Positions 506-36,558 of a DNA stretch of 48,166 nt are shown in pieces. Every line of letters starts with the position of its first letter. Position 1 is the first letter of the stretch. The notes beneath the pieces were generated by a model. It worked only from the letters and a program-made list of their open reading frames with translations. It did not search any database and had not been told where the DNA came from. The stretch is taken from contig NIVC01004371.1 of NCBI GenBank assembly GCA_002269645.1, positions 1 to 48,166 on the forward strand. Reading direction: 5' to 3'. The translations under genes and the position numbers were made by a program. The DNA comes from Macrostomum lignano (lineage: Eukaryota).

Positions 506-1068
506 GGTGCTAAAATGTTTTAACTTGCAAAAAAACGCAACTGATGCAGAAATTAGAATCTATTCTACGGCTCGTAGTATCGAGTTAATTTGGAAGTGAC
601 AGGTTCATTTTTATACAATTCGCCTGGCTTTCGAAAGGCCAATTAGCTAGCTATATGCGGACTGAGGTTGTCAGTCAAATTCACGAGCTGCTGAGCAATC
701 TGGGGAGAATAAATTTAATGGAATATTTGCCACCGACTGATGGAATTTGTTAAGAAAAAAACAATTTCGTCAGTATTCGCGCATCTTCATCTCGCTACTG
801 ACCACAGACTATCAGTAGCAATACGCGCGCACTTCATTTATAATTATAATAGAGACTTGCATATAAAATTTTCCAATCTATTAAATATCTTGAGCCGCAC
901 TCAATGCTGGCACTAATAGATGATGATAAGACTTTACAACGAATATTAAACTATTTTGTCGGCATATGTAATCACTACCAGTTAATAAAGTATTTTGTCA
1001 TTTTACAATATATATATATGAAGGCTAAATATACGCAGAAAGTCTCACATTGCGTGGAATTCACTGTG

Positions 1069-1680: not shown

Positions 1681-1688
1681 TATATAAG
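1681..1688 (+). promoter_or_regulatory. TATA box (TATATAAG) of the left-end ORF
   Basis: Canonical TATAWAW motif 83 nt upstream of the ATG at 1764. Confidence 0.6.
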
Positions 1689-1763: not shown

Positions 1764-2735
1764 ATGAATAAATCTCGGTGTCCATCCTACGTGCACGAGG
1801 TGTGCATCAGCTGCAATTCATGTGAGCTCGGTGGGTTAAAGCTCCATAACAAAAAAGACAGCTGCATTATAAGTCGCTGGTTGCTTTGCCACGAGTGCCA
1901 GACAACTGAGCTGTTCAATGTGCGCCGCCAAGTTCGGGCCCATAAAAATCACACCATCATTAATTGGAGCTCGCCTGATAGCATCGAACGAGCCCGCTTT
2001 ACTGTACTGGAGGCCGCCCACCGCCAGGAGCAACTCAACATGATCGAGCGTCATCGAGCCCCGGTCAGCACCCTGAGCCAGACGATTCAAGGTGTGCGAA
2101 ATCAATCTGCAATAATTTCAACTACATGTACTTTTGATTTGATTTCCGTTGCACTTGCTGCTGCAGATCAGCATCCAGCTGATGTTGCCAGCCTTCCTGG
2201 ACCTGCCAGCGTCGACTATCCAGCTGCTGCTCCTGGACCTGCTGGCATCGACCATCAAGCTGCCAGCGTTGACGTTCCAGCGGCTGGTGCTCTCAGTCTT
2301 CAGACACCGGTAAATCGCCATGACGATGATGCTGCTGCCGCTGATTTTGTTGCTCCGCCAGAATTGGACACGGCTTTCTTTGAGGAGCACGAGTTGGAGC
2401 CGGAGGAGACGAACGAAAAAGCCACGGTCGAGCAGCAGCCACCGCACAGGGCTGTTCCAGTCGCTGGAAAAAATATGGCTGGAATGATGGCGGATGCCAG
2501 CCTGTCTGATCTCCTACGAGATTTCGAACCTCATGCTACCCCACCGGTGGTACCAGAGTTTCCACAATCAGCAGGAGTCGAACCTCATGCTACCCCACCG
2601 GTGGTTCAACAATCAGCAGGAGTCCAAGCCGCTGAACCGATGGCTGCACCGTCAGTTTGCCTTCAATTCGTCCTACCGAGTAGCGTTGTGGGCGAGTACT
2701 CAATTGACTTTGGAGGGGGATCCGTATTCGCTTGA
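1764..2735 (+). CDS. Left-end accessory protein: Cys/His (B-box-like) zinc-binding N-terminus with LxCxE, acidic Pro/Ala-rich C-terminus
   Basis: 323-aa ATG-initiated ORF with upstream TATA box. Motifs CxxxH..CxxCxxC...LLCHEC...HKNH and a duplicated EPHATPPVV. Confidence 0.65.
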   Translation: MNKSRCPSYVHEVCISCNSCELGGLKLHNKKDSCIISRWLLCHECQTTELFNVRRQVRAHKNHTIINWSSPDSIERARFTVLEAAHRQEQLNMIERHRAPVSTLSQTIQGVRNQSAIISTTCTFDLISVALAAADQHPADVASLPGPASVDYPAAAPGPAGIDHQAASVDVPAAGALSLQTPVNRHDDDAAAADFVAPPELDTAFFEEHELEPEETNEKATVEQQPPHRAVPVAGKNMAGMMADASLSDLLRDFEPHATPPVVPEFPQSAGVEPHATPPVVQQSAGVQAAEPMAAPSVCLQFVLPSSVVGEYSIDFGGGSVFA

Positions 2736-3508: not shown

Positions 3509-6500
3509 ATGCAGGATCCTACAACATGTTCTAGGCGAAGAGCAGGTGAAGGAGCAGGTGAGTTTTGCCACTCTGTTAATGTAAAAAATCAATTATTTTC
3601 TTACCAATATTTGAAGTGGAAAAATTTTAAACCTTCAACTCGAAATGTGTAACTAATTCAGTTTTAATTAATGCGTAATAACACCCGCCCACCCCGAGTC
3701 CGTACACCAACCCTGACTCTGCACATCCCCGTCCTCGACTCTGCACACCCCCTCCTCGACTCTTCACACCCCCTCCTCGACTCCGCACACCCCCTCCTCG
3801 ACTCCGCACACCCCCTCCTCGACTCTGCACATCCCTTCTTCGACTCCGGACACCCCACCTCGACTCTGGACACCACACCTCGACTCTGGACACCCCACCT
3901 CGACTTCGCACACCTCTGCACACCTATATCGATTGTATACATCCAAAAACACCCTCCTCGATTCTGAATACAGACATCGATTATTATGAATAGCTAATTG
4001 AGCTGGATTTATAAGCAATCATGAGACTCTCAGTTTATGTTTCTCGATTTTCACTATCTTATCTCTCGATTTTATTTTTAGGGTCTTCATGTGTTATCTC
4101 CTTGGTGAACAGTGCCCACGATGATGTACTGCAGATTCATCGCTTCGCCCCAACAGCTGACATTGATCCATTCGAGTTTCTAGACCTGGTCAAACATGCG
4201 GTTCTGCAGTATCTCGAAGTTCGTCTTGACTCCTTTGACAACTGTTCGCTAAGAGCACAAATTAAGCTAAACGTGCGCATGATTCGGGTGCAGGCAGCAG
4301 AAGCAGTCAATGTTGAAAACAAATGGATGAGTACAAATCTTTGTATGCTGGTTGATGTGCAGGAATTTGATGACTGGTGGAGGCAGCAATTTGCAGAGTT
4401 AGAGCAGAGAGTAGACGTGTACAACGCTAATGGCAGTGGATGGGCCATTGACAAAATAAATTTCTTCGACCTTTGCTCTGCCCTCGCTGTTCGAACTCCC
4501 TACTATTCGGGGCATGCGGCTGGGTTTAGTTTGCCGACTGCGCTTTTTCAAAAGAAGGCCGTCATTTCTCCTCCTAGCAGCGGTGAAAATTGCTTTGTTT
4601 ACGCGTGCCTTGCCTTTCTTCACAAAGATCACTGCCGTATTAAGAAGTCAGCTCAACGAGAATCCTCGTACACCGAATGGCTAGATGAGATTAACATTAC
4701 GGGACTGAGTCTGCCGATCAATTTGTACGATCTGTCTGCTGTCGAGGAATTAAATCCAACCCTTTGCTTCACTGTTTTCACCTGGGAGAATGAAGCTGCT
4801 GAAGTCCTCCGACAGCCAAGCGCAGCTACCATGAGAGGACGAACAGTTGTCCTGCTGATGTTTCTTCCACCATCCACGAACGAGAACTCAGCTGGTGGTC
4901 ATTGGTGTGCTGTCTCGAACATCAACAGATTGCTGAACAGTAAAGCCCACCTGTACCAGCGAAAGTGGTGTGAGCGATGTCTGCTGTCATTTCACACTAG
5001 CAAGGCGTTCGATGAGCACTGTGAAGATATCTGTGAGCCTGGTGGGATTTTTGTTCAGGAAGAACTTCCGGATGAAGATCACAATGTACTTCGGTTTACG
5101 GCGTGGGAAAAGACAATCAGCCCACCATTCATTGTGTACGCCGACTTCGAGGCATTGAATGCACCTCACACAGGGCAGCAGACTGAAGCTGGTTCGAGCA
5201 CTGTAAAGCTGACAGAGCATGTTGCCGTTGCTGCTGGTTACTTGGTGGTGCACCGAGCAGGCCTCACAGGGTTATCACCTATAGGAGTCGACAATGATGT
5301 TAACATATTTGTGAGTGAAAATCCGAAAAAGTGTGTTTCTGACTTCTTGCAGTCCCTTGAACAGCTAGCTCGAGAGGTTTATGGCTGGAACACGGAGTTC
5401 AGTCATCAGACGGCTATTAGAACGGAGGCTGCAAAGCAACGCTTCCGCGACGCTATATCGTGTCACTACTGCGGAAGCGGCTTTGATAGTGAAAGCGGAA
5501 AGCACTGGGATCATGATCACCTCAGTGGCGAATTCCGAGGTGCAGCCTGTGCTCAGTGCAACATGCAGGCTCGTCTAAAAAGGCGCTTTCTTCCTGTGGT
5601 TTTCCACAATCTAAAAGGCTATGACCTTCATCTCATTATGTCAACGGCTTTGGATCTCATGGATGGATGGAGGATTTCGGTTATTCCACAGAATCCTGAG
5701 CAGTTTGTTTCAATGAAAGTTGACTTCAAAATCGATGAGTACGAGAGGGGAGGAAAGACTAAGCCATTGTTCTTTACCATTCAATTCATTGATTCTAACC
5801 AATTTCTCAACGCCAGCTTGGCTCAGCTGATCAAGAACCTGCCAGAAGAAGAGTGCACCATCACTAGCCTGCTAAAAAGTAAGTTTCCACTGTTGTCTCC
5901 AGAAGTTTTATTCAGAAAATGCACTTTTCCGTACGACTACTTAACTAATTCAAATGTCCTTGAGGATACCGAGCTGCCAAGTAAAGAACAATTCTACAAC
6001 GTTCTGACTAAAAGCCACTGCAGTGATGAGGATTACAGGCATGCACAGAAAGCATGGCATGAATTCCAAGTTAAAACGCTGAAAGAGTACATGCTATGCT
6101 ACCTTGAGCTTGACATTCGGCAGCTCGCCGATGTCTTTGAAAATTTTCGCAAGCTCAGCCTTCGTGATGATGGCCTTGATCCGGTGCATTTCGTTTCAAC
6201 CCCGGGATTATCTTTTGCTTCAGCACTGAAGTCTCTCAAATCCAGAATCGAGCTGATTACGGATTCGCAAATGTATGCAACATTCGAGCGCGGTATTCGC
6301 GGTGGCATGTCATTTGTGAACATACACAGAGTGTCAGCCAACTCTCCAGATATTAGAAAAAATTTGGAAGCAGCTGACAATCAGACTATCTGCAATGACA
6401 ATGATGATGATGATGATGACTGTCACGACGAGGGCGCTGATCAAGCTGTTCCTACCGAGCTTCTAGCAGTAGATGCTAACAACCTTTACGGTCAAGCTCT

Positions 6501-7854
6501 TACCATGAACTTACCTGCAAATGGATTTCGCTGGCTTTCCGAAGATGAGCTACAGCTGTGGACCGAGGATCGTATCCGAGGGCTCAAAATCTCAGATCCA
6601 ATTGCTTATCTGCTCGATGTCGATCTTCTATATCCAGCAGAGATACATTCCACCACTGAAGATTTGCCTTTTGCACCAGAAAAAGAAGCACCAAAATTCA
6701 AAGAATTTCCTGCCTACATGCAACAGCTTTGGAGGCAGATTACTGGAGACAAAGCAGCCTATCGTTCGGCAGAAAAACTTCTGCTCACCTGCCATGACAA
6801 GCAGAGTTATGTGCTTCATTCGGCTATCTTGGCATTCTACTTGAGCCATGGAATGAAAATCAAACGAATTAATCGAATGATTGAGTACAAACAGGAGCCG
6901 ATATTTGCTGACTATGTTAACATGAACAGCGTGAAAAGAGCTGCTGCGACAAACAGCTTCGAGAAAGACTACTACAAACTAAAAAACAATGCGCTCTTCG
7001 GAAAAACAATGGAAAACGTGCGTAAGCGACGTGACATTCGGATTTGCACCAACACTGCAAAAGCAAAGGTGCTGGCTTCAAAACCATCCATTAAGAACTT
7101 TATCATAATTACCGACTCACTGAGCATAATTGAATTCCAGAAGACTAAGGTCAAGCTTGATCGTCCGATTTTTATTGGCCAGTGTGTTCTTGACTATTCG
7201 AAGCTAATCATGTACGAGTTATTCTACGACAAATTGAAGCCTTGGCTTGAGCAAGAGGGTGCCCGTGTTCGGCTCTGTGGTGGAGACACCGACTCGCTCT
7301 TTCTTTGCATTCAGAATATGGATGTGCAGTCGGAAGTTCTTCCACTGCTAAAAGCAAAGAAACTCCTTGACACTTCCAACTATTCACCTGAGCACCCGCT
7401 GTTCTCAAATGAATTGAAAGCTCGCCTCGGTTGCATCAAGGACGAAGGAGCTGGAGCTCGCTATCTCGAATGGTTGCTTTTGAGACCAAAGCTGTATTCC
7501 TTTCTCGCTAGCACTGCAACTGCTGAAAAGAAAAAAGCCAAAGGCATTCAAGGATGTGTTGTCAAGAAGGAGATTGCGCATAGTGATTACTTGAGAGTCT
7601 TCAATGATCTGAGTAGCATGTCCGTCATCATCCACAGGATCGCTAGCATCCAACACAGGCTATTCACGCTGCAGCAGCGAAAGTGTGCCTTAAGCATTTG
7701 GGAGGACAAGCGCGCTTGGCTTGCACCGAACTACAGTCTCCCGTTTGGCCATTTTCAACTTCTTCATCCGGAGTCGTCGCAGCTGCAACAGCACGTGAAT
7801 GCTACAGCCTCCCGAAAGCGGCGACGGGAAGAAGACTACGAATTTAATAAGTGA
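3509..7854 (+). CDS. pPolB: Protein-primed family B DNA polymerase; predicted exons 3509-3557 and 4082-7854
   Basis: ExoI YADFE, ExoII FHNLKGYD, ExoIII YLELD; Pol A DANNLYG, Pol B KLKNNALFGK, Pol C GGDTDS. vOTU-like ENCF...GHW and EndoVII-like CHYC...DHDHLSGEFRGAACAQCN. Donor CAG|GTGAGT at 3557/3558 and acceptor TTTTTAG|G at 4081/4082 join in frame (phase 1). Confidence 0.95.
3713..3915 (+). repeat. 20-21-bp tandem repeat (CTCGACTCTGCACACCCCCTC), about 10 copies, inside the predicted pPolB intron
   Basis: Directly visible tandem units. Confidence 0.9.
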
Positions 7855-8583
7855 CTGAGTATAACTTTTTATCACACGGCCTCTACACATTTTATTCTGA
7901 ATATTTAGTCTTTGGTTTCTTCAAACATATACTCGCCTTTATCCGTTTAAATTATATGCTGTCTCAATTTTGCTATCTCAGATAGAAGAAGTTGCAGCAA
8001 TTTGCCTCCCCTGTTTCACCGTAATTTTAGTGTCTTTTTGAACTTTTTGTCTGAAGTCTTAATGCTAGCTATTAATTTATTAGTAATTTTATTTCAGTAC
8101 CTTGTAACTGCACGATTTCTACTCGTAATATTAAATTGCAAAGTCAGTAAATTTAATGTATTGAAATTTTTATTGCTGAGTTTTATGTTCATTTATTAAT
8201 TTTTTAACATGATGCTAAAACATTTCTTTGCATTGCTTTTGTTGAAATTTCTTGCCTCTATCTTGTAATTTTGCGGTCCAGTTACATGTATGAGTGTCAG
8301 TCGAGTTTGATTAATTAATTTCTTCATTCACGTGTATCAATCTAAGCAATTTCGCTTTTGGCAGAACCTTTTTGGAATGGGTTCTATGCCCTTTTTCTGT
8401 TTTTGTGAGGGAGAGATCTGATTACGCGTTTTAGCTCCCAGTTTTCAATTATTCTATGCTCATTTCACCTTTAATTTTTTAGTTAAAACTTATTTTTTAA
8501 AATAAAAATAAATAATTTAAAGATGCGGTTTTCCGTAATGAATTTACGCAAACATTCAAGAACAAACGGAACACACTTTTTGT

Positions 8584-9174
8584 TTATTTTTGATAGGTGA
8601 TAAACTGGCTGATTAAACTATGTAACGTAGAAAGGTCGAAGCGCAACATGCTCATAGATTTTGCTCCACTAAGAACAAAAGAACCAGTATGAAATAACAA
8701 GCATTTACAATAACGTAATGTATAAATTAGAGCAGAGAACGACTCGGGCTCATACTCAGCGTAAGACAGTATGCCAGAGGCAGCAAGATTTGTGAGGGAC
8801 AAAGCATTGCAGAAGTTAAATTTACCATGAGCAGTAATAGTTTTAATCCGAACACAAATGGCTTGAGGAGGCAGCAGTTGAGCTGGCACTCTCCGATGCA
8901 GCATAGCCACGAAGCGACGGGCAGCCCTTTTGGCGTCTGCGTGGGTCTTGGCACCGCAGATGCTCAGTTGCCCAGTAGGGTAGAGTAGCAGAGTCACTCT
9001 GGGACTTCGCATCCGCTTGATGAGCACCCGGGGCCAGACGGGCCGGTAGATCACATGAGCCATGCTGAGAGCCAGTTCCCGTAGAGGTAGCTGAGCGCCC
9101 CTGCCACCATCCAGCCTCAGATCTACTCCGCCAACCAGATTGCTCACTCTTAGGGCTGTAGCTGGTGGGCTCAT
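8584..9174 (-). CDS. TATA-binding protein (TBP)-like protein encoded by the Polinton (196 aa from the first ATG)
   Basis: Two TBP repeats: VSNLVGGVDL...YRPVWPRVLIKRMRSPRVTLLLYPTGQLSICGAK...AARRF and IKTITAH...YEPESFSALIY...LLFHTGSFVLSGAK. These align by eye to the TBP core (QNIVS..[34 protein letters not shown] / YEPELFPGLIY..LLIFVSGKVVLTGAK). The track start at 9213 is a TTG; first ATG is at 9174. The stop lies within AATAAA. Confidence 0.9.
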   Translation of the reverse strand: MSPPATALRVSNLVGGVDLRLDGGRGAQLPLRELALSMAHVIYRPVWPRVLIKRMRSPRVTLLLYPTGQLSICGAKTHADAKRAARRFVAMLHRRVPAQLLPPQAICVRIKTITAHGKFNFCNALSLTNLAASGILSYAEYEPESFSALIYTLRYCKCLLFHTGSFVLSGAKSMSMLRFDLSTLHSLISQFITYQK

Positions 9175-9694
9175 TTCGATCGTCAACTTCTTCACCAAAT
9201 CTGCTTCTGCCAACTTTACTGCTCGTGTGCCACGGACACTGCTCGCTTCTTAAGTTGATGCAGAACTTTGGCTTAAGCCAACTGTAGTGCAGCAACGAAT
9301 TTCTCACTGCACAGCCAGTATCTGAATCTTCAGTCGAGGGTGCTCCCAAATCTTCTAGGTTATAAACCTGTCTACCAAGCAGCTCAGTCAGGAAAATAGA
9401 CTTCCTTTCCCCATTTGTCCAGATCGGACCACTGGCAATCCTCAGAATGTCTTCCGCCAGTTCCATGTACGGACGGGTTCCATCATTCCACTTAAACTGG
9501 TGCAGACTCTTTGATAGCTGTCTGTAGCAAACTCGCATGTCAGGTGAGACTCTCTCCCATGGATACGGAGGTGCGTACACATGGTGAGCAATTCGGTAGC
9601 TTCCCGCTCTGACTTGAACAACTGCCAACTCCTTCACAACAAAGTTTTTGCTTGTGCTGTTGCACGGGAATCCTTGGAAGTCAATGTAGTTCAT
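8843..9694 (-). CDS. Polinton DEDD-like (RNase H-fold) exonuclease-family protein with a C-terminal extension overlapping the TBP ORF
   Basis: IDFQGF..FVVKELAV..HHVYAPPYPW..LHQFKWNDG..YNLEDLG..CAVRN pattern typical of a Maverick conserved protein. The acidic residues are non-canonical (DxQ, terminal N). Confidence 0.65.
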   Translation of the reverse strand: MNYIDFQGFPCNSTSKNFVVKELAVVQVRAGSYRIAHHVYAPPYPWERVSPDMRVCYRQLSKSLHQFKWNDGTRPYMELAEDILRIASGPIWTNGERKSIFLTELLGRQVYNLEDLGAPSTEDSDTGCAVRNSLLHYSWLKPKFCINLRSEQCPWHTSSKVGRSRFGEEVDDRNEPTSYSPKSEQSGWRSRSEAGWWQGRSATSTGTGSQHGSCDLPARLAPGAHQADAKSQSDSATLPYWATEHLRCQDPRRRQKGCPSLRGYAASESASSTAASSSHLCSD

Positions 9695-9734
9695 GATGCA
9701 GCTTTCCCTCGAAATTTCGGAGTCAGTCCACCTT

Positions 9735-9742
9735 CTTATATA
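9735..9742 (-). promoter_or_regulatory. TATA box (TATATAAG) upstream of the exonuclease-like/TBP unit
   Basis: Lies in the 99-bp intergenic gap, 48 nt upstream of the ATG at 9694. Confidence 0.6.
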
Positions 9743-9793: not shown

Positions 9794-10414
9794 CTAGACT
9801 CTCCTGTTCTTTCTCCAGTTCACCCCTCTGCTGGTTGCCATTTTCTTCTTAACTGATTTACCAATAGCGGAAAGCGGAACATTAAGCTTTTTCTGCTGCA
9901 GCAAATCGATGAACTCGTTCCACCCAACTGGTTCACGCTCACATGACGAATCCCTCACTGCGTGCTGAATCAAGTCCAGTATGTTTGAGGAAGGGATTGA
10001 CGTGCCTGCGATTTCCACCTCTCCGTTTTCACAAACTCCAATCAGCTCTGGATTGGTGGACAGGATCGTCCATAGACTGCGAGCCCTGGTTTTGAATTTC
10101 TGTGGCACCGACTTGCTGATCTTCTCTTCCCAGGTGTTCATCTGGGGTGTCTCTATTTTCATCAACTTGGCTTCAGTATTTCGTGATCCTTCTTTTCCAG
10201 CGTGCTTGCGCTTGGCCAGCAAACTTTGCATTGCACTTTGATACATGGCGGTTTTCACATCTTCTGGATAATCCTCGGCATACAAGATATCATCGCATTT
10301 CTTCTGAGCCTGCTTCAAGTCAGCGTCAGTGCTAGTCTCATTTGGCTTCAAATTCTGCACTAACATCTCATACTCTGCTTTAGAAATCAGAACCATTTCT
10401 GAAAATTTGTTCAT
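9794..10414 (-). CDS. Conserved Maverick/adintovirus protein (the so-called gasderminX-type ORF)
   Basis: MVLISK..DDILY..DVKTAMY..VPQKFKTRA..NGE..I..SNILDLI..PVGWNEF..NVP pattern and syntenic position after PW. Confidence 0.6.
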   Translation of the reverse strand: MNKFSEMVLISKAEYEMLVQNLKPNETSTDADLKQAQKKCDDILYAEDYPEDVKTAMYQSAMQSLLAKRKHAGKEGSRNTEAKLMKIETPQMNTWEEKISKSVPQKFKTRARSLWTILSTNPELIGVCENGEVEIAGTSIPSSNILDLIQHAVRDSSCEREPVGWNEFIDLLQQKKLNVPLSAIGKSVKKKMATSRGVNWRKNRRV

Positions 10415-10718
10415 TTTGCTTCTTTTTCTTGACCAGCTTAAGCAGAATCGGGAGTATTTTGATGAAGCCAGCCTTTAACAAGTCTATCTTTCTTCTCTGC
10501 TGAGTAATTTTTCGAATTATCTCTTTTGACTTTGCAAGAACAGCTTTTTCATCGATCGAAAACGATAAATTGTTTTGTAAGAGATTATGACAGGCCTCAA
10601 CAAGAAAATAACGCACTTCTTTTGGACAATTTTTTATCAACAGCTGCTTGAAGCGCACGGTATATTTAGGTGACGCAAGAACCGCAAAAAGACTTGCATG
10701 TGAATCAAGCACTTCCAT
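10380..10718 (-). CDS. PW: Maverick PW protein (small basic, cupiennin-type)
   Basis: KQLLIKNCPKEVRYFLVEACHNLLQNNL...GFIKILPILL pattern; downstream of the ATPase. Confidence 0.65.
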   Translation of the reverse strand: MEVLDSHASLFAVLASPKYTVRFKQLLIKNCPKEVRYFLVEACHNLLQNNLSFSIDEKAVLAKSKEIIRKITQQRRKIDLLKAGFIKILPILLKLVKKKKQNEQIFRNGSDF

Positions 10719-10760
10719 AGCGATGAAAACAATAGCCGATAAAAAACAAGCTTCACTTTC

Positions 10761-11408
10761 TTAAGCAAATACAAGATGGGGTCGCTGGTTGGGCAAAATT
10801 CTGGCCCGCACTCGCAGCTCATCGGGAGTTGATGGGTGAAAGTCTAGGAACAGGTAGGCTCCCCTGTTCTGCGCGGTCACGTGCTTGAACACTGACAGCA
10901 GAAAGCCGGGCTTCTCTGTAAAGCACTGCCTGCCCAGTGCTGCAATCTGCAGCTGGTCTCGGGGGTTTTTCAAGATAGCTAAGTACATTACATTCAAGCT
11001 CATTGTTCGCGACTCTTTTCCCTTGAAAAATATATTCTGAGTCAGCATCACCAAAAAGCACGGCAAGTGATGTGCGATTCCTGTGAAAAAATTTCGCATT
11101 GAAGCAGAATTTGAAGTTTCCTCTATTAAGTCATCGAAAACAACCAGGTCATTGGGCCTAAGTGCTGCCTCGATGTTGGTGGGGAATCCCTGGCGCAGCT
11201 GCACACCTAGGCTGCTCAGTTCTGCATGGCCTGCCTGTGAGATCCCATAGTACCACAGAACTCTGCCAGGCTTCACATCAAACATGACGTCTCTGTACTG
11301 GATCAGGTGTTTGACAAAGGTTGTTTTTCCTGCATTGGTGGGCCCGCAGACAATCATGCAGCTTCCCTGCCTGAGGCGGATATCGTAGCAAACTCGCTTT
11401 TCTCCCAT
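10761..11408 (-). CDS. ATP: A32/FtsK-like genome packaging ATPase
   Basis: Walker A GPTNAGKT, Walker B LVVFDD, HH..C..TQN and DQLQI motifs. Confidence 0.95.
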   Translation of the reverse strand: MGEKRVCYDIRLRQGSCMIVCGPTNAGKTTFVKHLIQYRDVMFDVKPGRVLWYYGISQAGHAELSSLGVQLRQGFPTNIEAALRPNDLVVFDDLIEETSNSASMRNFFTGIAHHLPCFLVMLTQNIFFKGKESRTMSLNVMYLAILKNPRDQLQIAALGRQCFTEKPGFLLSVFKHVTAQNRGAYLFLDFHPSTPDELRVRARILPNQRPHLVFA

Positions 11409-11437: not shown

Positions 11438-11947
11438 TCACGGACATCTTTTTCTTAAGTTGGCTTCAAACCTCTGTAAGATTCTATCATTCAAATGATT
11501 TTTTTCATTAGAGTGCAAACTCTTTAAAATACCCTCAAATGACCGATTGATCAGCAACTTTTGATAAGCAAAATAGATGCAAAACACTCCGCATTTATTA
11601 GAGTTAGCACATTGAAATCTGTTTATATTGCTTCGGAGATAAAAGCCAGTTGTTTTAATCTCTCGAAACAAATTATAAACCACAGATAAAATTTCAGGTT
11701 CCCAGCCGAGGGAGTTGAACAGCTCAATGCAATTTCCTTGCCCAGCATAGCACACCACCCAATGACCAAATGAGCCATTGTGCTGTAGTAGGATAAACAC
11801 AAACTTGTTTTCAAAGGGAATTGATCGATATTTTCTTTTTAGACTCAAAGACAATACATTTTTATAGCGTGAATGTAAAGTAATGATGAAGAATTTTCGG
11901 CAAGACAAAAATTTTCTGGCGAGATGGAGTAGTTGAATTGCTTCCAT
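11438..11947 (-). CDS. PRO: Adenain-like cysteine maturation protease
   Basis: GHW (His), FNSLG (third triad position), Q..SNKCG.FC (oxyanion Gln and catalytic Cys). Confidence 0.88.
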   Translation of the reverse strand: MEAIQLLHLARKFLSCRKFFIITLHSRYKNVLSLSLKRKYRSIPFENKFVFILLQHNGSFGHWVVCYAGQGNCIELFNSLGWEPEILSVVYNLFREIKTTGFYLRSNINRFQCANSNKCGVFCIYFAYQKLLINRSFEGILKSLHSNEKNHLNDRILQRFEANLRKRCP

Positions 11948-11952
11948 GCCAG

Positions 11953-13236
11953 TTAAGAGGAATAGTCCAGCAAAAGCTCCCGGTGCTTGGTGACCTCAAT
12001 CAGCGAGTCATACAGGCACAGAGCGATCAGGGACACCGTTTCGTCCAGAGCCTGTCGGAAGCGAATCTCCAACCGCAGGTTGCCCTCCTTCTGTCCGTAC
12101 CACAGAGCCGCTCCCTCTGGTGTGAGATCGAATGCAAACACCGTGCTGTTGTTGGAGAAGAGCTGGTAAGGGATCCACGGAACCGAGTTCGTGTGGCTTG
12201 CAGATTGACAGCTTTTCAGGTAGTGTAAGTATTCTCTTACAAAGGAATTGTTTTCAGGTGTGAAGGCACCGTGACACACGGTTTCCCCACCTTTCTTTAG
12301 AGCCAACTGGCTAAGGTTGAAGCTCTGGAACTGGAACGGGCTCGCGTGATGATGACCGTTGAATGCACGGTGGCTCACGAAGGCCAGCATGATGAACTTC
12401 GGCAATTTTCCATGAGTGAATCCTTCAATGTTTTTAGATTGAATGCCCTGGGGTAGGATGAAGTTCTGCATTTCAGTTCGCTCGATGGGATACAGTGCAT
12501 TTTGGTTTGTCAACCCCTGCTCGTGGGCCAGGCTGATGTGGGGCACCACTTTGACTCGGCGAAGATGCAAAATGCAGTGAGAGATTTCCATGCGGTATGC
12601 CGCGTTGTTTGCATTCGGGCTTCTGATGGCAAAGGCCCCATCGCTGGGCACCAGTTTGATGTGCAAGTGCAGATTGTTTAGCAGAAACACTGGGCATTGG
12701 AAAACATCGCTGAAGAGCGGTCCCGCATACTCCATCCATCGGGATTCCCTGTGGCTCTCCGTGTGCTTTTCAGCTGCCGAGTTCGGCTCCAGGAAGCCAG
12801 CAGGGTAAAGTTTTAGTTGCTGGGCATCAGATGAGCTCATTAGTGCTTTGAAGTACGCATGGTAGGGATAGAGCTGGTCTCCACCAGATACCACTCGCTG
12901 GTTAATGCTCACAATTACATCTGAGAAGGCTGTAGACAAAACAAAGTTTTCTGGGTGCACGTCACTGTCTCTGCGCTCGGTGATGATGCCATCTCCATCT
13001 CGAACATCCTCCCTCAGCAAACCCCCATCCAGTCTCACAAGGCGGCAGCGAATATAAAGAAAAGAATTAAGCAAATCAGTGTATTCATCGGCAGATTGGT
13101 GGCAGTCAAATTCAATGGGGGAGTTTGCAGTAATGGAATTTACTGGGTGAATATCAACATAAGTAGCTTTTTCAATGCAGGTTTGTAGAACAGGCGTCTT
13201 AAATAAATCAAGTCTGGGATTGAATCCGTAAGCCAT
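11953..13236 (-). CDS. PY: Double jelly-roll major capsid protein (PY)
   Basis: LDLF..P.LQT.I....VDIHPV..I....PIEF N-terminus, YP..RTE, GKLPKFI, FNG....PF.FQ.FN, FAFDLTP, GNLRLEIRF; 427 aa. Confidence 0.93.
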   Translation of the reverse strand: MAYGFNPRLDLFKTPVLQTCIEKATYVDIHPVNSITANSPIEFDCHQSADEYTDLLNSFLYIRCRLVRLDGGLLREDVRDGDGIITERRDSDVHPENFVLSTAFSDVIVSINQRVVSGGDQLYPYHAYFKALMSSSDAQQLKLYPAGFLEPNSAAEKHTESHRESRWMEYAGPLFSDVFQCPVFLLNNLHLHIKLVPSDGAFAIRSPNANNAAYRMEISHCILHLRRVKVVPHISLAHEQGLTNQNALYPIERTEMQNFILPQGIQSKNIEGFTHGKLPKFIMLAFVSHRAFNGHHHASPFQFQSFNLSQLALKKGGETVCHGAFTPENNSFVREYLHYLKSCQSASHTNSVPWIPYQLFSNNSTVFAFDLTPEGAALWYGQKEGNLRLEIRFRQALDETVSLIALCLYDSLIEVTKHRELLLDYSS

Positions 13237-13238
13237 GT

Positions 13239-13628
13239 CTATGACAGAGAGTCGAGCACGCGTTTCACAGTTTTCTTGCTGACTTTTCGCTTTCGCTTTC
13301 CTCCGCCTGCTGCATTCTTCTTTGCTTTCGTCTTCCTATTCTTAAGCTTTTTCCTACTAGCCTTGCTCGGATTTCTTTCATTGCACCTCTTATTGGTGCG
13401 ATCTCTACCAGTTGCCTTTCGGGTGTACTTCTTCTTCTTCAATCGTTTCGGACTTGCTTCAGTATTTCTTTTGCGCCTGACATTGCTATGCGTTGAGAAT
13501 GATGATGTAGCCGCTGGCGGAGGCTGGTATGTCATGATCCCCGGAAAGCTCCCACAGCCATAGAGTGCAGGCTTTTCGTGTCCTGTCCTCACCCCCGAAT
13601 ATTGCTGGATCAGCTGCTGGTAGTTCAT
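13239..13628 (-). CDS. Basic pVII-like core (genome-condensing) protein
   Basis: First ATG at 13628 (track start 13697 is TTG). Very K/R-rich C-terminal half, LYGC|G adenain-consensus site, located between the minor and major capsid genes. Confidence 0.75.
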   Translation of the reverse strand: MNYQQLIQQYSGVRTGHEKPALYGCGSFPGIMTYQPPPAATSSFSTHSNVRRKRNTEASPKRLKKKKYTRKATGRDRTNKRCNERNPSKASRKKLKNRKTKAKKNAAGGGKRKRKVSKKTVKRVLDSLS

Positions 13629-14452
13629 TGAATGCGTTTCTCCCGAATCTGAACTGTGAGCAGAACAGGGCTGAGTGTCTGGGCAATCAGTGGGCAACCA
13701 TAGATGTCACGCAGCTGAACTCGAATGCTGTGAAGAAGACTGATTCGTTGAATCGGGAAGAATATTGTTTTCTTAAATATTTTTGTTTGATAGTTGCCCC
13801 ATTCAATGCCGGCTTTCATTCCAACTGTTCTCAACAGGGAGCCCAAGTTGCAATTAGTTGACTCAACGATACTGCAGTGCACATTGATTAAGCTGGTGCG
13901 CGGGCAGCCAATGCAGTGCTCGGACACGCGGCTCCCTGGCTGGATTTTCACAGCCTGGTTTCCAAATCCCAGCCAATGCAGAATTTTGCTGGATGGGAGA
14001 AACATCTCTGCTCTCGCAGTGTTGTTGTGCACCACAGTTCGTGAGTTGCGGATTTCGAACTTCATACCGAATTCCCTGTTGCCACTACGCCCCATCAGGC
14101 CGGACTCATCAGCCTCCATCTCAGACTCCCTGTCACTCATTGCATCAAAGAATAGCGAATCAGAGTTGGCCAGCAGCTGATTCAAACGCTCCACCAGCTC
14201 CTCCACTCTAGCAAAGCGTCCGGGTTGAAGAACCAGGGCCTCATGCTCTCTTCCATCTGAGACAGTGAAGCAGTAAGGCTCGTCAACATTGAACCATGCA
14301 GCAGGCAGATGGATTTCAGCCAGACCTGCCTCATAGTCCACATTTCGATCCAAGTAAATAGGTGAAGGCAAGTAAAAATTAAAGTCACTAGGAGTACCTT
14401 CAGCATGCTCACTGTTAATCAAAATAGTTCGCATTATAATGTTAAACCTCAT
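13625..14452 (-). CDS. PX: Single jelly-roll minor capsid/penton protein (PX)
   Basis: SDFNFYLPSPIYLD..YEAGLAEIHLP..WFNV N-terminus; VHCSIVE..LLRTV..I.V.L.D..G C-terminus. Confidence 0.88.
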   Translation of the reverse strand: MRFNIIMRTILINSEHAEGTPSDFNFYLPSPIYLDRNVDYEAGLAEIHLPAAWFNVDEPYCFTVSDGREHEALVLQPGRFARVEELVERLNQLLANSDSLFFDAMSDRESEMEADESGLMGRSGNREFGMKFEIRNSRTVVHNNTARAEMFLPSSKILHWLGFGNQAVKIQPGSRVSEHCIGCPRTSLINVHCSIVESTNCNLGSLLRTVGMKAGIEWGNYQTKIFKKTIFFPIQRISLLHSIRVQLRDIYGCPLIAQTLSPVLLTVQIREKRIQ

Positions 14453-14471: not shown

Positions 14472-15542
14472 CTAAACCTTTCTTAAGTCTTTTTCATCCA
14501 CCCAGCCTGTCGAGTCGTAGCCGGCCCACTTCACCAGATAGCGAATTTTTCCCTTCCTCTTCTCCGTTTTCAGAATCTTCTCAATCACATACAGTCGCTG
14601 TGAGTCCGGCACCGCCTGCAGCTCATGCTCATGAAAGAGACCCCGGATCTCCTCACCCTTTATGTCCCTAATCTTGTACATGTACGGATAGTGCTTCGGT
14701 GCCCTACATACTACAGTGTACACCTCCTCACTCCAGTTGGCCTTGTATCCTTTGTGGAATAGCCTGGGTGCATTGGAAATTCTCACTGACTGCTTTTCAC
14801 TGAATTTGGGCTTCTTTGGCTTATTTACAGTCTCAATGGCTCTTCCATTGTAAAGGTTCATCCAGACCTCAGTCTCATTCTCTTTGCATACGCTAGTCGG
14901 TGCCATTTTGATGCTTCTGTGGTAAGTGTTGTTGTACGACTTGACCAGCTTTGGCAACACATCAACCCAATGCAAAGTGCTCTTGTGGGTGAAATATCGC
15001 CACATTTTGTTTTTCAAAGTTCTATTCCACCTCTCTATGATGGCTGCTTTTTGCTCACTATTAGTGGGGAATGCCAAAATTCCCTTGCTTATACAGAGCT
15101 CCCGAAAATTGGTATTGATGAACTCTTTTCCTTGATCCGTGCGGACTGTGCGTGGCTGGCGCTTTGAGCACCTCAGGATACTCTCGAATGCGAACTTGAC
15201 TTCCGCAGCTGATTTGTTTTTTAGAGGCCTGGCCCAACCAGATTTAGAGAGGACATCTATACATGTGAGAATATACTTGTAGCCGTTATTGTATTTTGCA
15301 AATGGTATCATCTCAACCAGGTCAAGTTCCCACTGATCATCAATAGCCCTAACAATGATTGGTGCCATAGGATAGCGTCTCCTAGCTTGCTTGTGCAGTG
15401 TGTACACAGGCTGCTCAGTCAGCCATTGTCCGATGCTCTTTTTAGATTCACGATTATCCTGTGTTTTCTTGAGCTCGTGCAGAAGCTTTGAGACACCCGA
15501 GAAACTGGCAGGCTGAGCAGGGTTGTAGTAGATCTTTTCCAT
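14472..15542 (-). CDS. INT: Retroviral-like DDE integrase with C-terminal chromodomain
   Basis: Catalytic triad WELDL / TDQGKEF / IERWNRTLK; YH.SIKM.P; chromodomain YVIEKIL..RYLVKWAGY..WV. First ATG at 15542. Confidence 0.96.
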   Translation of the reverse strand: MEKIYYNPAQPASFSGVSKLLHELKKTQDNRESKKSIGQWLTEQPVYTLHKQARRRYPMAPIIVRAIDDQWELDLVEMIPFAKYNNGYKYILTCIDVLSKSGWARPLKNKSAAEVKFAFESILRCSKRQPRTVRTDQGKEFINTNFRELCISKGILAFPTNSEQKAAIIERWNRTLKNKMWRYFTHKSTLHWVDVLPKLVKSYNNTYHRSIKMAPTSVCKENETEVWMNLYNGRAIETVNKPKKPKFSEKQSVRISNAPRLFHKGYKANWSEEVYTVVCRAPKHYPYMYKIRDIKGEEIRGLFHEHELQAVPDSQRLYVIEKILKTEKRKGKIRYLVKWAGYDSTGWVDEKDLRKV

Positions 15543-15811
15543 TATCAAAATCAAGCTGAATGAAAGCCTGCAAAACAATTTTTTTTAAGTTCTTTCGCGG
15601 TTTGCTCATTGAGCCACTGTTCAATGCTCTTTCAATTTTTATGCCCACCCTCTTCTCTAACTTGATGCAGCAGCTGTTGGGCAAATTGAAAAACTAGCTG
15701 GTTGGCCAGGAGCAAATAATTTTTTTCCATTTTCTCAAGAAACAAAAGTCAACAGTCTAATTTTTTCTTAAGCACAAGAACAAAGGAAAACAATTTTTTT
15801 ATGAAAAGAAG

Positions 15812-15819: not shown

Positions 15820-15987
15820 TTTTTTAGCGGATAAGAAACAATAAGTTGCATGATTTTCTTAAATGGAGAGACTTAATTAAGTTTTCTGGATAAATGAGCA
15901 ATGTTAATTATAGAAATTGTTAAATGAGCCAATTTAAGTATGTCACCAGTCACCAAAGTTCTTCAAAGCACTTCTTATTCTTCTTCT

Positions 15988-16731
15988 TCACTCCTCATCC
16001 TCATTGAGGCGCAGTCTCATGGCATTCTGCCTGCGCAGCGGATATGGTTGCTTGCGCTTCCTGACGTTCTCGACCGCAGCTGCTTCAGCCCGGAAGCGAT
16101 ACCAGACTGGGTCCTGCAGCAAATCCGAATCCTGCTTTGGGATAAAGCCAGCTGCAGCACTTGTCACCGGTAGAGGCGTTGATGTGACCACTTCATCGTC
16201 GATGCGTAGAGTGCTTGATTGGACGCCCTCATCCTCAGTCTTCGCAAGCCGCATGGTGTCGTCCTTGTTGCTGTTGTCATCATCATCACCGTTTCTCTCG
16301 CTCGAAGATCCCGACTCCAGCTCATACACATCAGAAATTTGGCGTGGGGCAGACAGCTGCTCGTCGATCCATGCAGCCTGCTCCCACAGTTTTCGCCACA
16401 GAGCTGGTGCCAAGGCCACAGTGTTTCGCTTCAAAAATTCTTCGCAGCAATCTTCTGGAAGCCGTCTTAGCCAGATGATGCCGTTCTTAACCTCAACAAA
16501 CTTATCAAAACCGAGTTTGATGATCCTCTGTTGCCCGCCTAGGGCCGCCTTCACGAGAGTTCGCTTCAGTTCTTTCAACTTCTCCCATTGTCGGATGTTG
16601 AGGTTAAATCCGGGAACGCCGGGTTTTAAACTTGCTGTGCTGCCATGTCGATAAAATTTCCGAATCGCAATAAACTGTACTCCTTCATACTCTTGTACTT
16701 GAAGTTTGTAGCCTTCTCCAATATCGACCAT
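15988..16731 (-). CDS. PC4/Sub1-like ssDNA-binding/coactivator protein with a probable second degenerate PC4 domain and an acidic tail
   Basis: IGEGYKLQVQEYEGVQFIAIRKFY...PG..GFNLNIRQWEKL matches the PC4 fold. LGFDKFVEVKNGIIWLRR...TVAL...LWRKL looks like a second copy. Confidence 0.78.
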   Translation of the reverse strand: MVDIGEGYKLQVQEYEGVQFIAIRKFYRHGSTASLKPGVPGFNLNIRQWEKLKELKRTLVKAALGGQQRIIKLGFDKFVEVKNGIIWLRRLPEDCCEEFLKRNTVALAPALWRKLWEQAAWIDEQLSAPRQISDVYELESGSSSERNGDDDDNSNKDDTMRLAKTEDEGVQSSTLRIDDEVVTSTPLPVTSAAAGFIPKQDSDLLQDPVWYRFRAEAAAVENVRKRKQPYPLRRQNAMRLRLNEDEE

Positions 16732-16805: not shown

Positions 16806-16813
16806 TTTATATA
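16806..16813 (-). promoter_or_regulatory. TATA box (TATATAAA) of the PC4-like gene
   Basis: 82 nt upstream of the ATG at 16731. Confidence 0.55.
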
Positions 16814-16880: not shown

Positions 16881-17035
16881 AGGTGCCTATGTACTCTCAT
16901 TAGGAGTCTACGGAATTCCCATGGCTTTGCCTGCGGCAGAGTTGAGCCATGCAAACACATAGGCGCCCTTCTGATCCGGGCCCACGGAATTTCCGTGGCT
17001 TTCCCTGCGGCAGAGTTGTGTTATCCTCTACTACT
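16881..17035 (-). repeat. Right terminal inverted repeat (155 bp)
   Basis: Base-by-base comparison with the left TIR gives 154/155 identity. Confidence 0.98.
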
Positions 17036-17152
17036 ACTGTGTCATTGACAAGTTTCTGTGGCACAAACCTTCTTGGCATTTGCTTATTTGACTTAATTAT
17101 GAAAGCTAGCTGTGGAAGTTTTCTACTTAGTCCTTAGATGTAAACATAATTC

Positions 17153-35400: not shown

Positions 35401-36558
35401 CTTGTTATGGAGCAACCGCCTTAAGATTTCAACAGCCTTTGCACTTTTCTTGAACCAGCTATGAGTAGATAGAAGCCTTCTGTATCTGCGCCAAAGATTT
35501 TTAAGTGCTCTTACCTTCTTGTTGAATTCTTCTCTGGGCACGCAGTTAACACGCCCTTAACTCTCGAATCACATCTTTCAGGGTCTTGGCTCTTTGTTTA
35601 ATTTGCCTATGCTTTGAGCGCACTGATCAAATTTTGCGGTACTTGTTATGGAGCAACCGCCTTAAGATTTCAACAGCCTTTGCACTTTTCTTGAACCAGC
35701 TATGAGTAGATAGAAGCCTTCTGTATCTGCGCCAAAGATTTTAAAGTGCTCTTACCTTCTTGTTGAATTCTTCTCTGGGCACGCAGTTAACATGGATGTC
35801 CGGTCCAGGATCTTCATCTTCCTTGGCAGCCACTGGAGCTTCCGGCTCGCTGCTCTCTATTGATTTACAAAATGCAGCGAAATCAACTTTGTGAGCTGCG
35901 GCTGCAGTGGCAGTCTTCCATTTCTTCTCAGCTTTTGGCTGCAGATGGTCAGGGAACGTTGGGAAGATAGAAGGAATGACATTTGGATATAGCTGTCTTT
36001 TGACGCTAGGCAAAAAGCCTGCAAATTGCTCTTTAAAGCAAGATTCCTCAAAATGCATTGAGCAGACTTGCGTGGATGGCGATGGCTCAAAATATTTTTT
36101 CTCAATGCTATCAGCCACTTTTTCCTCATTTCCTTGTCTTTTGGAAAAGTATAAAAGGACACTCCCACCAAAGACATTGCTGAGTTGTTCGAGCAGCCAG
36201 CAGTGCAGCAAAAGCTGCCGTAATTTCCTTTTCTTTTCCTCGGAAATTTAAAAAAAAGATTCAGGTTGTTCTTCCACTTCGTTTTTAAGAAATTATTAAT
36301 TTTTTAATAACTTTGCTTAGCTGTTTGAAGTTAGTATAGCATTGTTATTGTGGTCCCCAAGCCGCATTAATATACATGTTAATTTAAAAAAGGGCAAAGT
36401 GCAGACAGCTAAAGAAGGGCCAGTCTTCCCCAAGCCAAAAATATCAATCGTTTTGGGCTGGGGTAGAGAGGACCATTTTTTGCTTTGTCATTTTGTCAAA
36501 AAACAAGCCCAGGCAAGCAATGCTAGATGCGCAGTCTAGTTATACTTATTGGTCTGTG
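32428..36558 (-). mobile_element. Decayed P-element (THAP + THAP9-like transposase), 4,131 bp
   Basis: TIRs CA(T/C)AGACCAATAAGTATAAC..ACTGCGCAT; 8-bp TSD GGCTCAAC at 32420-32427 and 36559-36566. THAP motifs (CxxxGCSN..FYTFPKD..W..VCSMHF..VIPSIF). Transposase fragments with SPKAY, CDG, DVPHMLK, MKVYLASQLFS and SQDFLE, broken by frameshifts and stops. Confidence 0.9.
35312..35793. repeat. 241-bp tandem duplication inside the P transposase
   Basis: GCCCTTAACTCTCG starts at both 35312 and 35553; the copies are near-identical. Confidence 0.92.

What the first reader, a model, noticed from the sequence alone, without database searches (positions are those of the whole stretch)
8584..9174. A Polinton/Maverick encodes its own TATA-binding protein
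Seen: an intact, intronless 196-aa ORF with both TBP saddle repeats lies inside the TIRs, at the end of the minus-strand gene block, and its stop is embedded in AATAAA. Established: TBP homologs occur in large NCLDV genomes, but they are not part of the standard Polinton set (pPolB, INT, ATPase, PRO, PX, PY, PW, PZ), and Polintons lack an RNA polymerase. I do not recall a Polinton TBP being described, but could not check the literature. Inference: a ~16-kb virus supplying a divergent TBP could redirect host Pol II/III preinitiation to viral promoters (a late-gene switch, analogous in concept to herpesvirus vTBP), or act as a dominant-negative on host transcription.
Basis: partly seen in the sequence, partly recalled or inferred. 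Interest (0 to 1): 0.92.

Follow-up and report, generated by a model that had tools for sequence, protein, structure and literature searches.

The report
Maverick TBP with matching promoter box
A recently mobile 16-kb virus-like Maverick element carries its own conserved TATA-binding protein with a changed DNA-reading surface, and its capsid and packaging genes sit behind a shared variant TATA box, which suggests the element redirects the host's RNA polymerase II to its own late genes.

Summary
Confirmed. Window 9174-8584 (-) is an intact 196-aa two-lobed TBP (Pfam E 5e-26; model Z~19 to solved TBPs) inside a complete 15,967-bp Maverick with TIRs and a 6-bp TSD. It is not a recent host capture. 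It has 94 full-length open copies at 75-100% identity and dN/dS about 0.1-0.3. A second family, about 35% identical, holds it in the same place, and both fall in a clade apart from host TBP and TRF2.

Six DNA-contact positions carry the same non-canonical residues in all 11 clade sequences aligned, while both TFIIB glutamates are kept. A box, Y-W-TAAGAA, lies on the sense strand 12-150 nt upstream of most capsid, packaging and TBP genes in both families. It was not found in stretches of two other Polinton-type families, which show no TBP.

Best reading (0.55): an altered-specificity viral TBP recruits host TFIIB and Pol II to late promoters, with positive feedback on its own gene. Binding, start sites and expression are untested.

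Novelty is partial. Starrett 2021 labels a TBP on one adintovirus-like map, and this scan noted Polinton TBPs in two other genomes, one with its own box.

The parts
1063..1068 (.). left target-site duplication ACTGTG
   Evidence: empty site with one copy in L043
1069..1223 (+). left TIR, begins AGTAGT
1681..1688 (+). canonical-type TATA (TATATAAG) about 80 nt before ORF1; candidate host-TBP (early) promoter
   Evidence: role inferred
1764..2735 (+). ORF1, 323 aa, Cys/His-rich N-terminus, upstream of PolB (where adintovirus 'Oncoid' genes lie); no family hit
4021..7854 (+). protein-primed family B DNA polymerase with endonuclease VII domain, 1277 aa
   Evidence: PHROG DNA polymerase E 7e-10; Pfam Endonuclease_7; PolB motifs by eye (recalled motifs)
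8583..8588 (-). AATAAA overlapping the TBP stop; likely common 3' end of the minus-strand block
8584..9174 (-). viral TBP, 196 aa, core only, both lobes; derived DNA face (P48,R49,Y65,S71,C73,T112,T114,S147), TFIIB glutamates E142/E144 kept
8843..9694 (-). ORF283: Maelstrom/DEDD-like N-domain (lead only) plus a tail overprinted on the TBP N-lobe and kept open in both families
9247..9254 (-). Y-W-TAAGAA box, 80 nt before the TBP ATG (36 of 36 family-A loci)
9733..9740 (-). box 46 nt before ORF283, inside GTATATAAGAAG (34 of 35 loci)
9794..10414 (-). ORF206, conserved in both families, no family hit; no box upstream (0 of 33 loci)
10380..10718 (-). ORF112, small basic protein with amphipathic C-terminus (cupiennin-like class by recall)
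   Evidence: class recalled
10758..10765 (-). box 47 nt before ORF112; overlaps the ATPase stop, and the non-coding GAA after the stop is kept in all subfamilies tested and in family B (8 of 8 family-A loci)
10761..11408 (-). A32/FtsK-type packaging ATPase
   Evidence: weak Pfam Pox_A32 E 0.011; position
11438..11947 (-). adenain-type maturation protease; no box upstream
   Evidence: Pfam Peptidase_C5 E 0.003, below cut-off
11452..11459 (-). box 51 nt before the ATPase
11953..13236 (-). major capsid protein candidate (double jelly roll)
   Evidence: ESM Atlas 0.98 to a cluster with PF21738 in 24% of members
13239..13628 (-). basic 129-aa protein, candidate DNA-condensing core protein
   Evidence: role inferred
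13339..13346 (-). box 110 nt before the MCP (107 nt in family B)
13625..14452 (-). penton (minor capsid) candidate
   Evidence: position and size only; no profile hit
13770..13777 (-). box 149 nt before the basic protein (140 nt in family B)
14472..15542 (-). rve integrase with chromodomain
   Evidence: Pfam rve E 2e-12, Chromo
14480..14487 (-). box 35 nt before the penton candidate
15765..15772 (-). box 230 nt before the integrase ATG and 42 nt before a decayed copy of the integrase 5' end
15856..15863 (-). box in the PC4-integrase spacer
15988..16731 (-). PC4-domain protein (Pol II coactivator / ssDNA-binding fold), also beside TBP in family B
   Evidence: Pfam PC4 E 4.8e-7
16806..16813 (-). 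canonical TATATAAA about 80 nt before PC4; candidate early promoter
   Evidence: role inferred
16881..17035 (-). right TIR
17036..17041 (.). right target-site duplication ACTGTG

Best explanation
The element makes a minimal, altered-specificity TBP that acts as its late/intermediate promoter-recognition factor. Terminal genes (PC4, ORF1) have ordinary TATA boxes and are read first by host TBP/TFIID. Viral TBP then binds the variant box Y-W-T-A-A-G-A-A ahead of the capsid, core, ATPase, integrase-region and Maelstrom-like genes and ahead of its own gene (positive feedback). It bends the DNA with the retained C-lobe phenylalanines and recruits host TFIIB and Pol II through the two retained glutamates. 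Transcripts probably share the AATAAA at the TBP stop. Shown: gene, fold, conservation, residue pattern, and the box's strand, position and conservation. Inferred: that the box is a promoter, that viral TBP binds it, TFIIB contact, and timing.
For: (1) Kept by selection. 94 of the 150 listed matches are full-length, stop-free copies at 75-100%. dN/dS is about 0.11-0.29 in the N-lobe for diverged pairs and 0.06-0.27 in the C-lobe where dS is estimable. 80 of 98 capsid-gene matches have a TBP match downstream. (2) Old. Family B (MCP 41% identical) has TBP in the same place with the same overlap. A, B and six database proteins form one clade (SH-aLRT 95, quick tree) apart from host TBP and TRF2. 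(3) Fixed new DNA face. At the 16 DNA-contact positions listed in PMC12529657 Table 1, the window protein keeps 7 and changes 9. F99P, A100R (a neighbouring position outside that list), F116Y, V122S, T124C and N159T are identical in 11 of 11 clade rows; F190 and F207 are kept and P191 is lost in 11 of 11. P191 is what favours T at box position 1, matching the C/T seen there. V122S faces base 6, where the box has G (contact recalled). (4) E186/E188 are kept in 11 of 11. Giant-virus TBPs have diverged there and carry their own TFIIB (PMC7221094); no TFIIB match appeared among the element's ORFs. (5) The box. There are 9 sites on the sense strand of the 8.3-kb block, 0 antisense and 0 in the 6.6-kb ORF1-PolB part; Markov mean 0.7, and 0 of 300 simulations reach 9. 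7 of 9 lie 10-150 nt before an ATG (p 2e-4); in family B 6 of 6 do, with 0 antisense (p 1e-4). It is kept in subfamilies whose flanking genes are only 63-72% identical, including in non-coding bases, while look-alike CTTAAGC sites are lost. It sits in different reading frames. There are 0 sites in 19.8 kb from two other Polinton-type families with no TBP match in those stretches.
Against: No binding, start-site or expression data. The pattern was drawn up after seeing upstream regions of both families. The blind k-mer scan of family A alone (top 6-mer CTTAAG, nominal p 2e-4 among 3174 words) does not survive correction. Only the diverged family-A sites and the family-B integrase, penton and basic-protein sites are out of sample. 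Wild-type TBP has been crystallised on single T2 and G6 TATA variants (PDB titles 1qna, 1qn5), so host TBP may read the box. Protease and ORF206 have no box (0 of 33 for ORF206). Family B's TBP has TATAAAAG rather than the box, and its ATPase and protease have none. The family-B penton site is only 12 nt from the first ATG. One intercalating Phe is replaced by Pro, which could weaken binding. The control families are two partial stretches with about 2.2 sites expected, so zero shows no enrichment, not depletion. Families A and B are related, so they are not independent cases.
Confidence: 0.55

Rival explanations
1. Supply booster. The box is a weak TATA that host TBP also reads. Viral TBP has no real specificity switch and simply provides TAF/Mot1-independent TBP in cells (germ line, stem cells) where host TBP is limiting or bound in TFIID.
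For: Wild-type TBP binds single T2 and G6 variants (titles). Family B's TBP gene has a canonical TATAAAAG. Family B lacks most of the H2 basic patch, the region that TAF1, Mot1 and TFIIA contact (PMC7221094 section 12).
Against: It does not explain why six non-canonical residues at or beside the DNA contacts are invariant across proteins only 30-50% identical, nor why G6 is kept in both families.
Confidence: 0.2
2. The box is a promoter or processing signal read by something else (a host factor, the PC4-domain protein, a 3'-end or translation signal), and TBP has a separate DNA-bending job in replication or packaging.
For: Genes are tightly packed, so upstream of one gene is the end of the previous one. 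Four sites lie at or within about 25 nt of an upstream stop. The block has few AATAAA signals.
Against: The TBP, MCP and basic-protein sites lie deep inside open upstream frames, where a 3'-end signal would cut them. TBP keeps TFIIB glutamates that a structural role would not need. The box has the shape of a TATA variant.
Confidence: 0.15
3. Decoy or dominant negative. The protein binds DNA poorly and titrates host TFIIB (or Brf1), damping host transcription or anti-transposon responses.
For: F99 is replaced by Pro and N159 by Thr while the TFIIB glutamates stay. Host TRF2 also lacks intercalating Phe residues.
Against: The DNA-facing residues are invariant rather than drifting, and F190, F207, N69, V71 and L114 are kept. 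It leaves the box unexplained.
Confidence: 0.08
4. Neutral passenger: a recently captured host TBP retrocopy carried along by the element.
For: The gene is intronless, and the host TBP core is also encoded in one open frame.
Against: About 28% identity to host TBP, purifying selection, a separate clade and the same position in two distant families.
Confidence: 0.02

Closest known systems
Mavericks/Polintons (adintoviruses; Starrett et al. 2021, PMC8502044)
   Same: TIRs with AGT ends, 6-bp TSD, pPolB, rve integrase, ATPase, protease, capsid genes. The labels MAEL and SSDBP occur on their maps (suppl. Fig. S2) and may correspond to ORF283 and PC4. 'TBP' is an abbreviation in the Fig. 5 legend for MELD viruses with adintovirus-like PolB.
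   Different: The paper gives no analysis of that TBP: one mention in the main text, and I could not see which virus bears it. No TBP label in the text read from the Fig. S2 animal maps. No promoter box is described in the passages read.
Beta/gamma-herpesvirus vTBP (KSHV ORF24, with TATTWAA late promoters; PMC12529657, PMC7498053)
   Same: A virus without its own RNA polymerase uses a TBP with a more polar DNA face and a variant TATA box for structural genes; V122 and T124 are also replaced by polar residues.
   Different: ORF24 is a large multidomain protein that lacks the TFIIB glutamates, binds the Pol II CTD directly and needs five other viral activators. The Maverick protein is a bare 196-aa core that keeps the glutamates, so it should use host TFIIB. 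Probably independent origins (inferred; ORF24 was not in the tree).
Nucleocytoviricota TBPs (PMC7221094; BFVD hits)
   Same: TBP fold in a dsDNA virus (best E 9e-11, 14% identity).
   Different: They have diverged at the TFIIB positions and pair with viral TFIIB (and, by recall, viral RNA polymerase). This element shows neither, and its sequence is closer to cellular TBPs (24-29%) than to these.
Cellular TBP and TRF2/TBPL1 (host copies L031, L032)
   Same: Two-lobed saddle, rmsd about 2 A; TFIIB stirrup.
   Different: No N-terminal extension; 9 of 16 DNA contacts changed; outside both host clades in the tree.

Membership tests
TBP family (PF00352) | two TBP repeats forming a saddle | tested here: met
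TBP family (PF00352) | aromatic residue at L5.1 of both lobes (yeast F116, F207; mapping of L5.1 to these numbers inferred) | tested here: met
   Y65 and F161; aromatic in both, Tyr in the N-lobe
canonical eukaryotic TBP | four intercalating Phe and the N69/N159 pair | tested here: not met
   F99P, F116Y and N159T in 11 of 11 clade rows
canonical eukaryotic TBP | acidic TFIIB-contact pair in the C-lobe stirrup | tested here: met
   E142/E144 in 11 of 11
canonical eukaryotic TBP | basic patch on helix H2 for TFIIA/TAF1/Mot1/Brf | tested here: inconclusive
   partly kept in family A (K82, R86, R87, R94; R141 lost), mostly lost in family B; exact signature positions not mapped
TBP family (PF00352) | binds and bends a TATA-type box | not testable with these tools
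   needs EMSA, SELEX or a structure
Maverick/Polinton | long TIRs with AG/AGT termini and 6-bp TSD | tested here: met
Maverick/Polinton | protein-primed PolB and rve integrase | tested here: met
   PolB class rests on a PHROG hit and recalled motifs
Maverick/Polinton | packaging ATPase and adenain protease | tested here: met
   weak Pfam hits below cut-off (E 0.011, 0.003) plus gene order
Polintovirus/adintovirus | double-jelly-roll major and single-jelly-roll minor capsid proteins | tested here: inconclusive
   MCP has an Atlas lead to PF21738; penton by position only
Polintovirus/adintovirus | virion formation | not testable with these tools
   none
herpesvirus vTBP/vTA system | N-terminal Pol II-CTD-binding domain and loss of the TFIIB glutamates | tested here: not met
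   196-aa core only; glutamates kept
herpesvirus vTBP/vTA system | variant TATA box ahead of structural genes | tested here: inconclusive
   a box is present and conserved; promoter function not shown

The most novel reading that the evidence does not exclude
Animal Mavericks have evolved a one-protein orthogonal transcription switch. It pairs a bare TBP whose DNA face has been retuned (V122S for G6, loss of P191 for Y1) with its own promoter box. It plugs into host TFIIB/Pol II and amplifies itself, giving a 16-kb integrated virus a late programme without a polymerase or activator complex. The gene also serves as the swap point between capsid cassette and polymerase module, so working TBPs are assembled from lobes of different lineages.
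Probability: 0.4. Interest if true: 0.85.

Novelty: new variant of a known kind. Interest (0 to 1): 0.72.

Why it matters
How Mavericks switch on their capsid genes, and so whether and when they leave the chromosome as viruses, is open (my knowledge; the searches listed no paper on it). A matched TBP and box makes this testable with one small protein and an 8-bp site. It would be the simplest known viral takeover of Pol II initiation, simpler than the six-protein herpesvirus system. It would also be a natural altered-specificity TBP for studying TATA recognition or building orthogonal promoters.

Tried and rejected
Searches that found nothing:
- Related loci: none in viral contigs or metagenome contigs. 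The genomic context of database homologs P0003-5, P0007, P0045 and P0158 is therefore unknown; that they are Maverick genes is inferred from the tree.
- Sequencing runs: no RNA holder listed.
- No PDB sequence hit for the PolB C-terminal part.
- No NCBIfam or PHROG hit for ORF1, ORF206, ORF283, MCP or penton.
- No earlier scan notes for this genome or for this sequence.

Literature. Ten searches of the held library listed no paper analysing a Polinton TBP or such a box; subscription journals are mostly not held. The TATA-variant crystal paper was not held, so base-by-base contacts other than P191 are recalled. Starrett's supplement is cut at 4 million characters, and its slides and Table S1 were not seen; they may name the TBP-bearing virus.

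Ideas rejected:
- CTTAAG palindrome as the motif: the CTTAAGC sites before ORF206 and at TBP -103 are lost in diverged copies.
- A full-length ORF283-TBP frameshift fusion: one subfamily has a stop directly before the TBP ATG.
- ORF283 as the constrained frame in the overlap: dN exceeds dS in its tail for most pairs.
- A shared initiator downstream of the boxes: none seen by eye.

Limits of single calls. The careful tree did not finish; the quick tree is cited, built from 96 rows after keeping 82 of the 147 other library proteins. In one search, two of the ten family-B start coordinates (ATPase, TBP) were off by a few bases; none of the six counted sites depends on them. A few rows were cut from view. 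No complex prediction was sent, because a TBP-TFIIB pair would pass by likeness to solved structures.

Full report
Observation. Window 9174-8584 (-) is one open frame of 196 aa. It has both TBP repeats (PF00352, E 4.8e-26) and matches solved TBPs by sequence (best E 1e-14). An AF2 model from a 19-row alignment that included cellular TBPs has pLDDT 93.6 and aligns to archaeal, yeast and human TBP at Z about 19 and rmsd 2.0-2.4 A. The stop lies in AATAAA.

The element. TIRs of 155 nt, AGTAGT ends, a 6-bp duplication and an empty site with one copy of it define a 15,967-bp Maverick. The plus strand carries ORF1 and pPolB. The minus strand carries, in order, a PC4-domain protein, integrase, penton candidate, basic protein, major capsid candidate, protease, ATPase, ORF112, ORF206, ORF283 and TBP. 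It is recently mobile: of 28 matches to the left end, 26 start at or just inside the TIR rather than in this flank (40 of 163 candidates scored). The named relatives of the TBP, at 83-98% over their matched parts, come from the flatworm Macrostomum lignano, so the host is probably that species or a close one (inference).

Conservation. The genome search gave 151 matches (150 of 227 candidates scored). Of the 150 listed, 94 are full-length and stop-free at 75-100% identity, 10 of them identical in protein. Of 98 capsid-gene matches, 80 have a TBP match downstream on the same strand (both lists are top-scoring subsets). Among 11 copies chosen to span subfamilies, dN/dS is about 0.11-0.29 in the N-lobe for diverged pairs (up to 0.46 for near-identical pairs with few changes). 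In the C-lobe it is 0.06-0.27 where synonymous sites are not saturated. A second family (B; MCP 41%, integrase 55% identical) has a TBP about 35% identical in the same order after ORF283, with PC4 beside it, in 17 near-full-length open copies. Host TBP (three places, 218 aa) and a TRF2-like gene are separate. In a quick ML tree, families A and B plus six database proteins form one long-branched clade (SH-aLRT 95) outside both host genes; long-branch attraction cannot be excluded. Recent neutral capture is refuted.

The protein surface. I took the 16 DNA-contact residues from Table 1 of PMC12529657 (passages read) and mapped them through the host TBP (yeast numbers for those motifs partly recalled). 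The window protein keeps N69, V71, L114, F190, L205, F207 and V213. It changes F99P, A101V, F116Y, V122S, T124C, N159T, V161T, P191S and T215S. F99P, F116Y, V122S, T124C, N159T and the neighbouring A100R are the same in 11 of 11 clade rows. None of the 8 other rows has P99, Y116, S122 or T159; P0045 and P0158, not in that alignment, have Thr at V122. The changes cluster on the N-lobe and central strands, which read the 3' half of a TATA box (recalled). The two TFIIB glutamates are kept in 11 of 11. PMC7221094 (abstract, passages and sections 7, 12, 14 read) reports that viral TBPs have diverged at these positions and come with viral TFIIB; KSHV ORF24 lacks them. So this TBP is built to use host TFIIB (inference).

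The box. Upstream regions share Y-W-TAAGAA. In the window there are 9 sites, all on the sense strand of the minus block and none in ORF1-PolB (Markov mean 0.7; 0 of 300 reach 9). The host flank has 14 in 31 kb over both strands, so the word is not rare in host DNA. Seven of the 9 lie 35-149 nt before an ATG (TBP, ORF283, ORF112, ATPase, MCP, basic protein, penton). The other two are in the spacer before integrase, one of them 42 nt before a decayed copy of the integrase 5' end. Across family-A loci the box is present before TBP in 36 of 36, ORF283 in 34 of 35, ORF112 in 8 of 8 and ORF206 in 0 of 33 (many loci are near-identical, so these are not independent). It survives in subfamilies 63-72% identical in the flanking proteins, in different frames and in the non-coding bases after the ATPase stop. 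Family B has 6 sense and 0 antisense sites in 8.9 kb, each 12-140 nt before a start; its TBP has TATAAAAG instead. Two other Polinton-type families in this genome (9.9 kb fetched from one copy of each) show no TBP match and no site in those stretches; about 2.2 were expected, so this is weak. The pattern was fixed after seeing some family-B regions, so only part of this is out of sample. PC4 and ORF1 have canonical TATATAA boxes about 80 nt upstream.

Mechanism. Most likely (0.55), host TBP starts the terminal genes. Viral TBP then reads the variant box, recruits host TFIIB and Pol II, and drives the morphogenesis block and itself, with transcripts ending at the conserved AATAAA after TBP (36 of 38 loci). 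Loss of P191 fits the free first base, and V122S would make room for G6 (recalled contact). Against this, wild-type TBP binds single T2 or G6 variants (titles), protease and ORF206 lack the box, and nothing here shows binding or transcription. The rivals are a plain supply booster (0.2), an unrelated box (0.15) and a decoy (0.08).

Two further features. ORF283's tail is overprinted on the TBP N-lobe in the same relative frame in both families. It has no stop in 9 of 9 copies tested, where 3-6 are expected (P 0.004-0.019 in family A, not independent; under 0.001 in B). Yet its residues are not conserved, so openness itself seems selected, perhaps to stop the longer mRNA from making TBP or to shorten its 3' UTR (speculation). 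Second, identity between copies breaks sharply near codon 115. Among 11 copies there are 3 N-lobe types that follow the capsid cassette and 8 C-lobe types that, where tested, follow pPolB. The doubly coded N-lobe has about half the dS of neighbouring genes and probably serves as the last homology for module exchange (inference).

What is known. Starrett et al. 2021 (PMC8502044; passages, section 3.4 and part 1 of the supplement read; figures not visible) list 'TBP' in the Fig. 5 legend for MELD viruses with adintovirus-like PolB, with no discussion. Herpesvirus vTBP is the functional parallel (PMC7498053, abstract only; PMC12529657, passages). Ten searches listed no analysis of a Polinton TBP or its promoter box. 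This scan noted Polinton TBPs in two other genomes, one with a TATAAAC box that is absent from the TBP gene itself (unchecked). Here the TBP gene has the box, and no look-alike of this sequence was found among the notes.

Verdict. The gene is real, conserved and functional in all likelihood, with a specific and testable promoter partner. It is a new variant of viral TBP-driven transcription, not a first sighting of TBP in this virus group. Interest 0.72.

Noticed in passing
window 8843-9174: ORF283's tail is overprinted on the TBP N-lobe and kept free of stops in both families although its amino acids drift.
   Followed up: partly
window about 8830 (TBP codon ~115); L015-L040: Repeated module exchange inside the TBP gene: the N-lobe goes with the capsid cassette, the C-lobe with pPolB; 8 C-lobe types against 3 N-lobe types in 11 copies.
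   Followed up: partly
window 15988-16731; L033:2364-2801: PC4-domain gene in both families with a canonical TATA box; could be a Pol II coactivator working with viral TBP or the replication ssDNA-binding protein (152 matches in the genome).
   Followed up: partly
window about 15650-15730: Decayed duplicate of the integrase 5' end with its own box 42 nt upstream, suggesting the integrase was replaced by recombination.
   Followed up: partly
L046:3182-7779, L047:870-4926: Two other Polinton-type families have TAAA(A) or an A-run directly before nearly every ATG (13 starts listed), recalling poxvirus-type TAAATG late promoters (recalled) or an A-rich start context; possibly a different, helper-dependent expression strategy.
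   Followed up: no
L033/L041 (G000:C738), L044/L045 (G000:C291): Family B copies differ in their polymerase: only a fragment in C738, a frame-broken longer piece in C291, while TBP and the promoter boxes stay intact; possibly non-autonomous.
   Followed up: partly
G000:C654:77274-79697, G000:C2162:179776-182199: Short (about 2.4 kb) TIR-bounded derivatives of the window's family that appear to keep only the ends and the PC4 gene.
   Followed up: no
window 9794-10414: ORF206 ends differently from most sister copies (their match stops at residue 197), perhaps a sequencing indel in this contig.
   Followed up: no
window 3706-3914: 20-21-nt tandem repeats between ORF1 and pPolB; family B has similar C-rich repeats near one end.
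   Followed up: no
window 18498-19805: Host-side Q/E/K-rich 24-nt tandem-repeat ORF of 435 aa, plus other minisatellite arrays at 17.1-18.0, 22.7-23.3, 25.1-26.3 and 27.1-27.9 kb.
   Followed up: no
window 33000-36200: Decayed minus-strand ORF pieces that look like a THAP/P-element-type transposase (by eye, recalled), with an exact 240-nt tandem duplication at 35312-35792.
   Followed up: no
window 40812-41555, 45136-45855: Host gene exons: alpha/beta hydrolase and an LDL-receptor class A domain protein.
   Followed up: no
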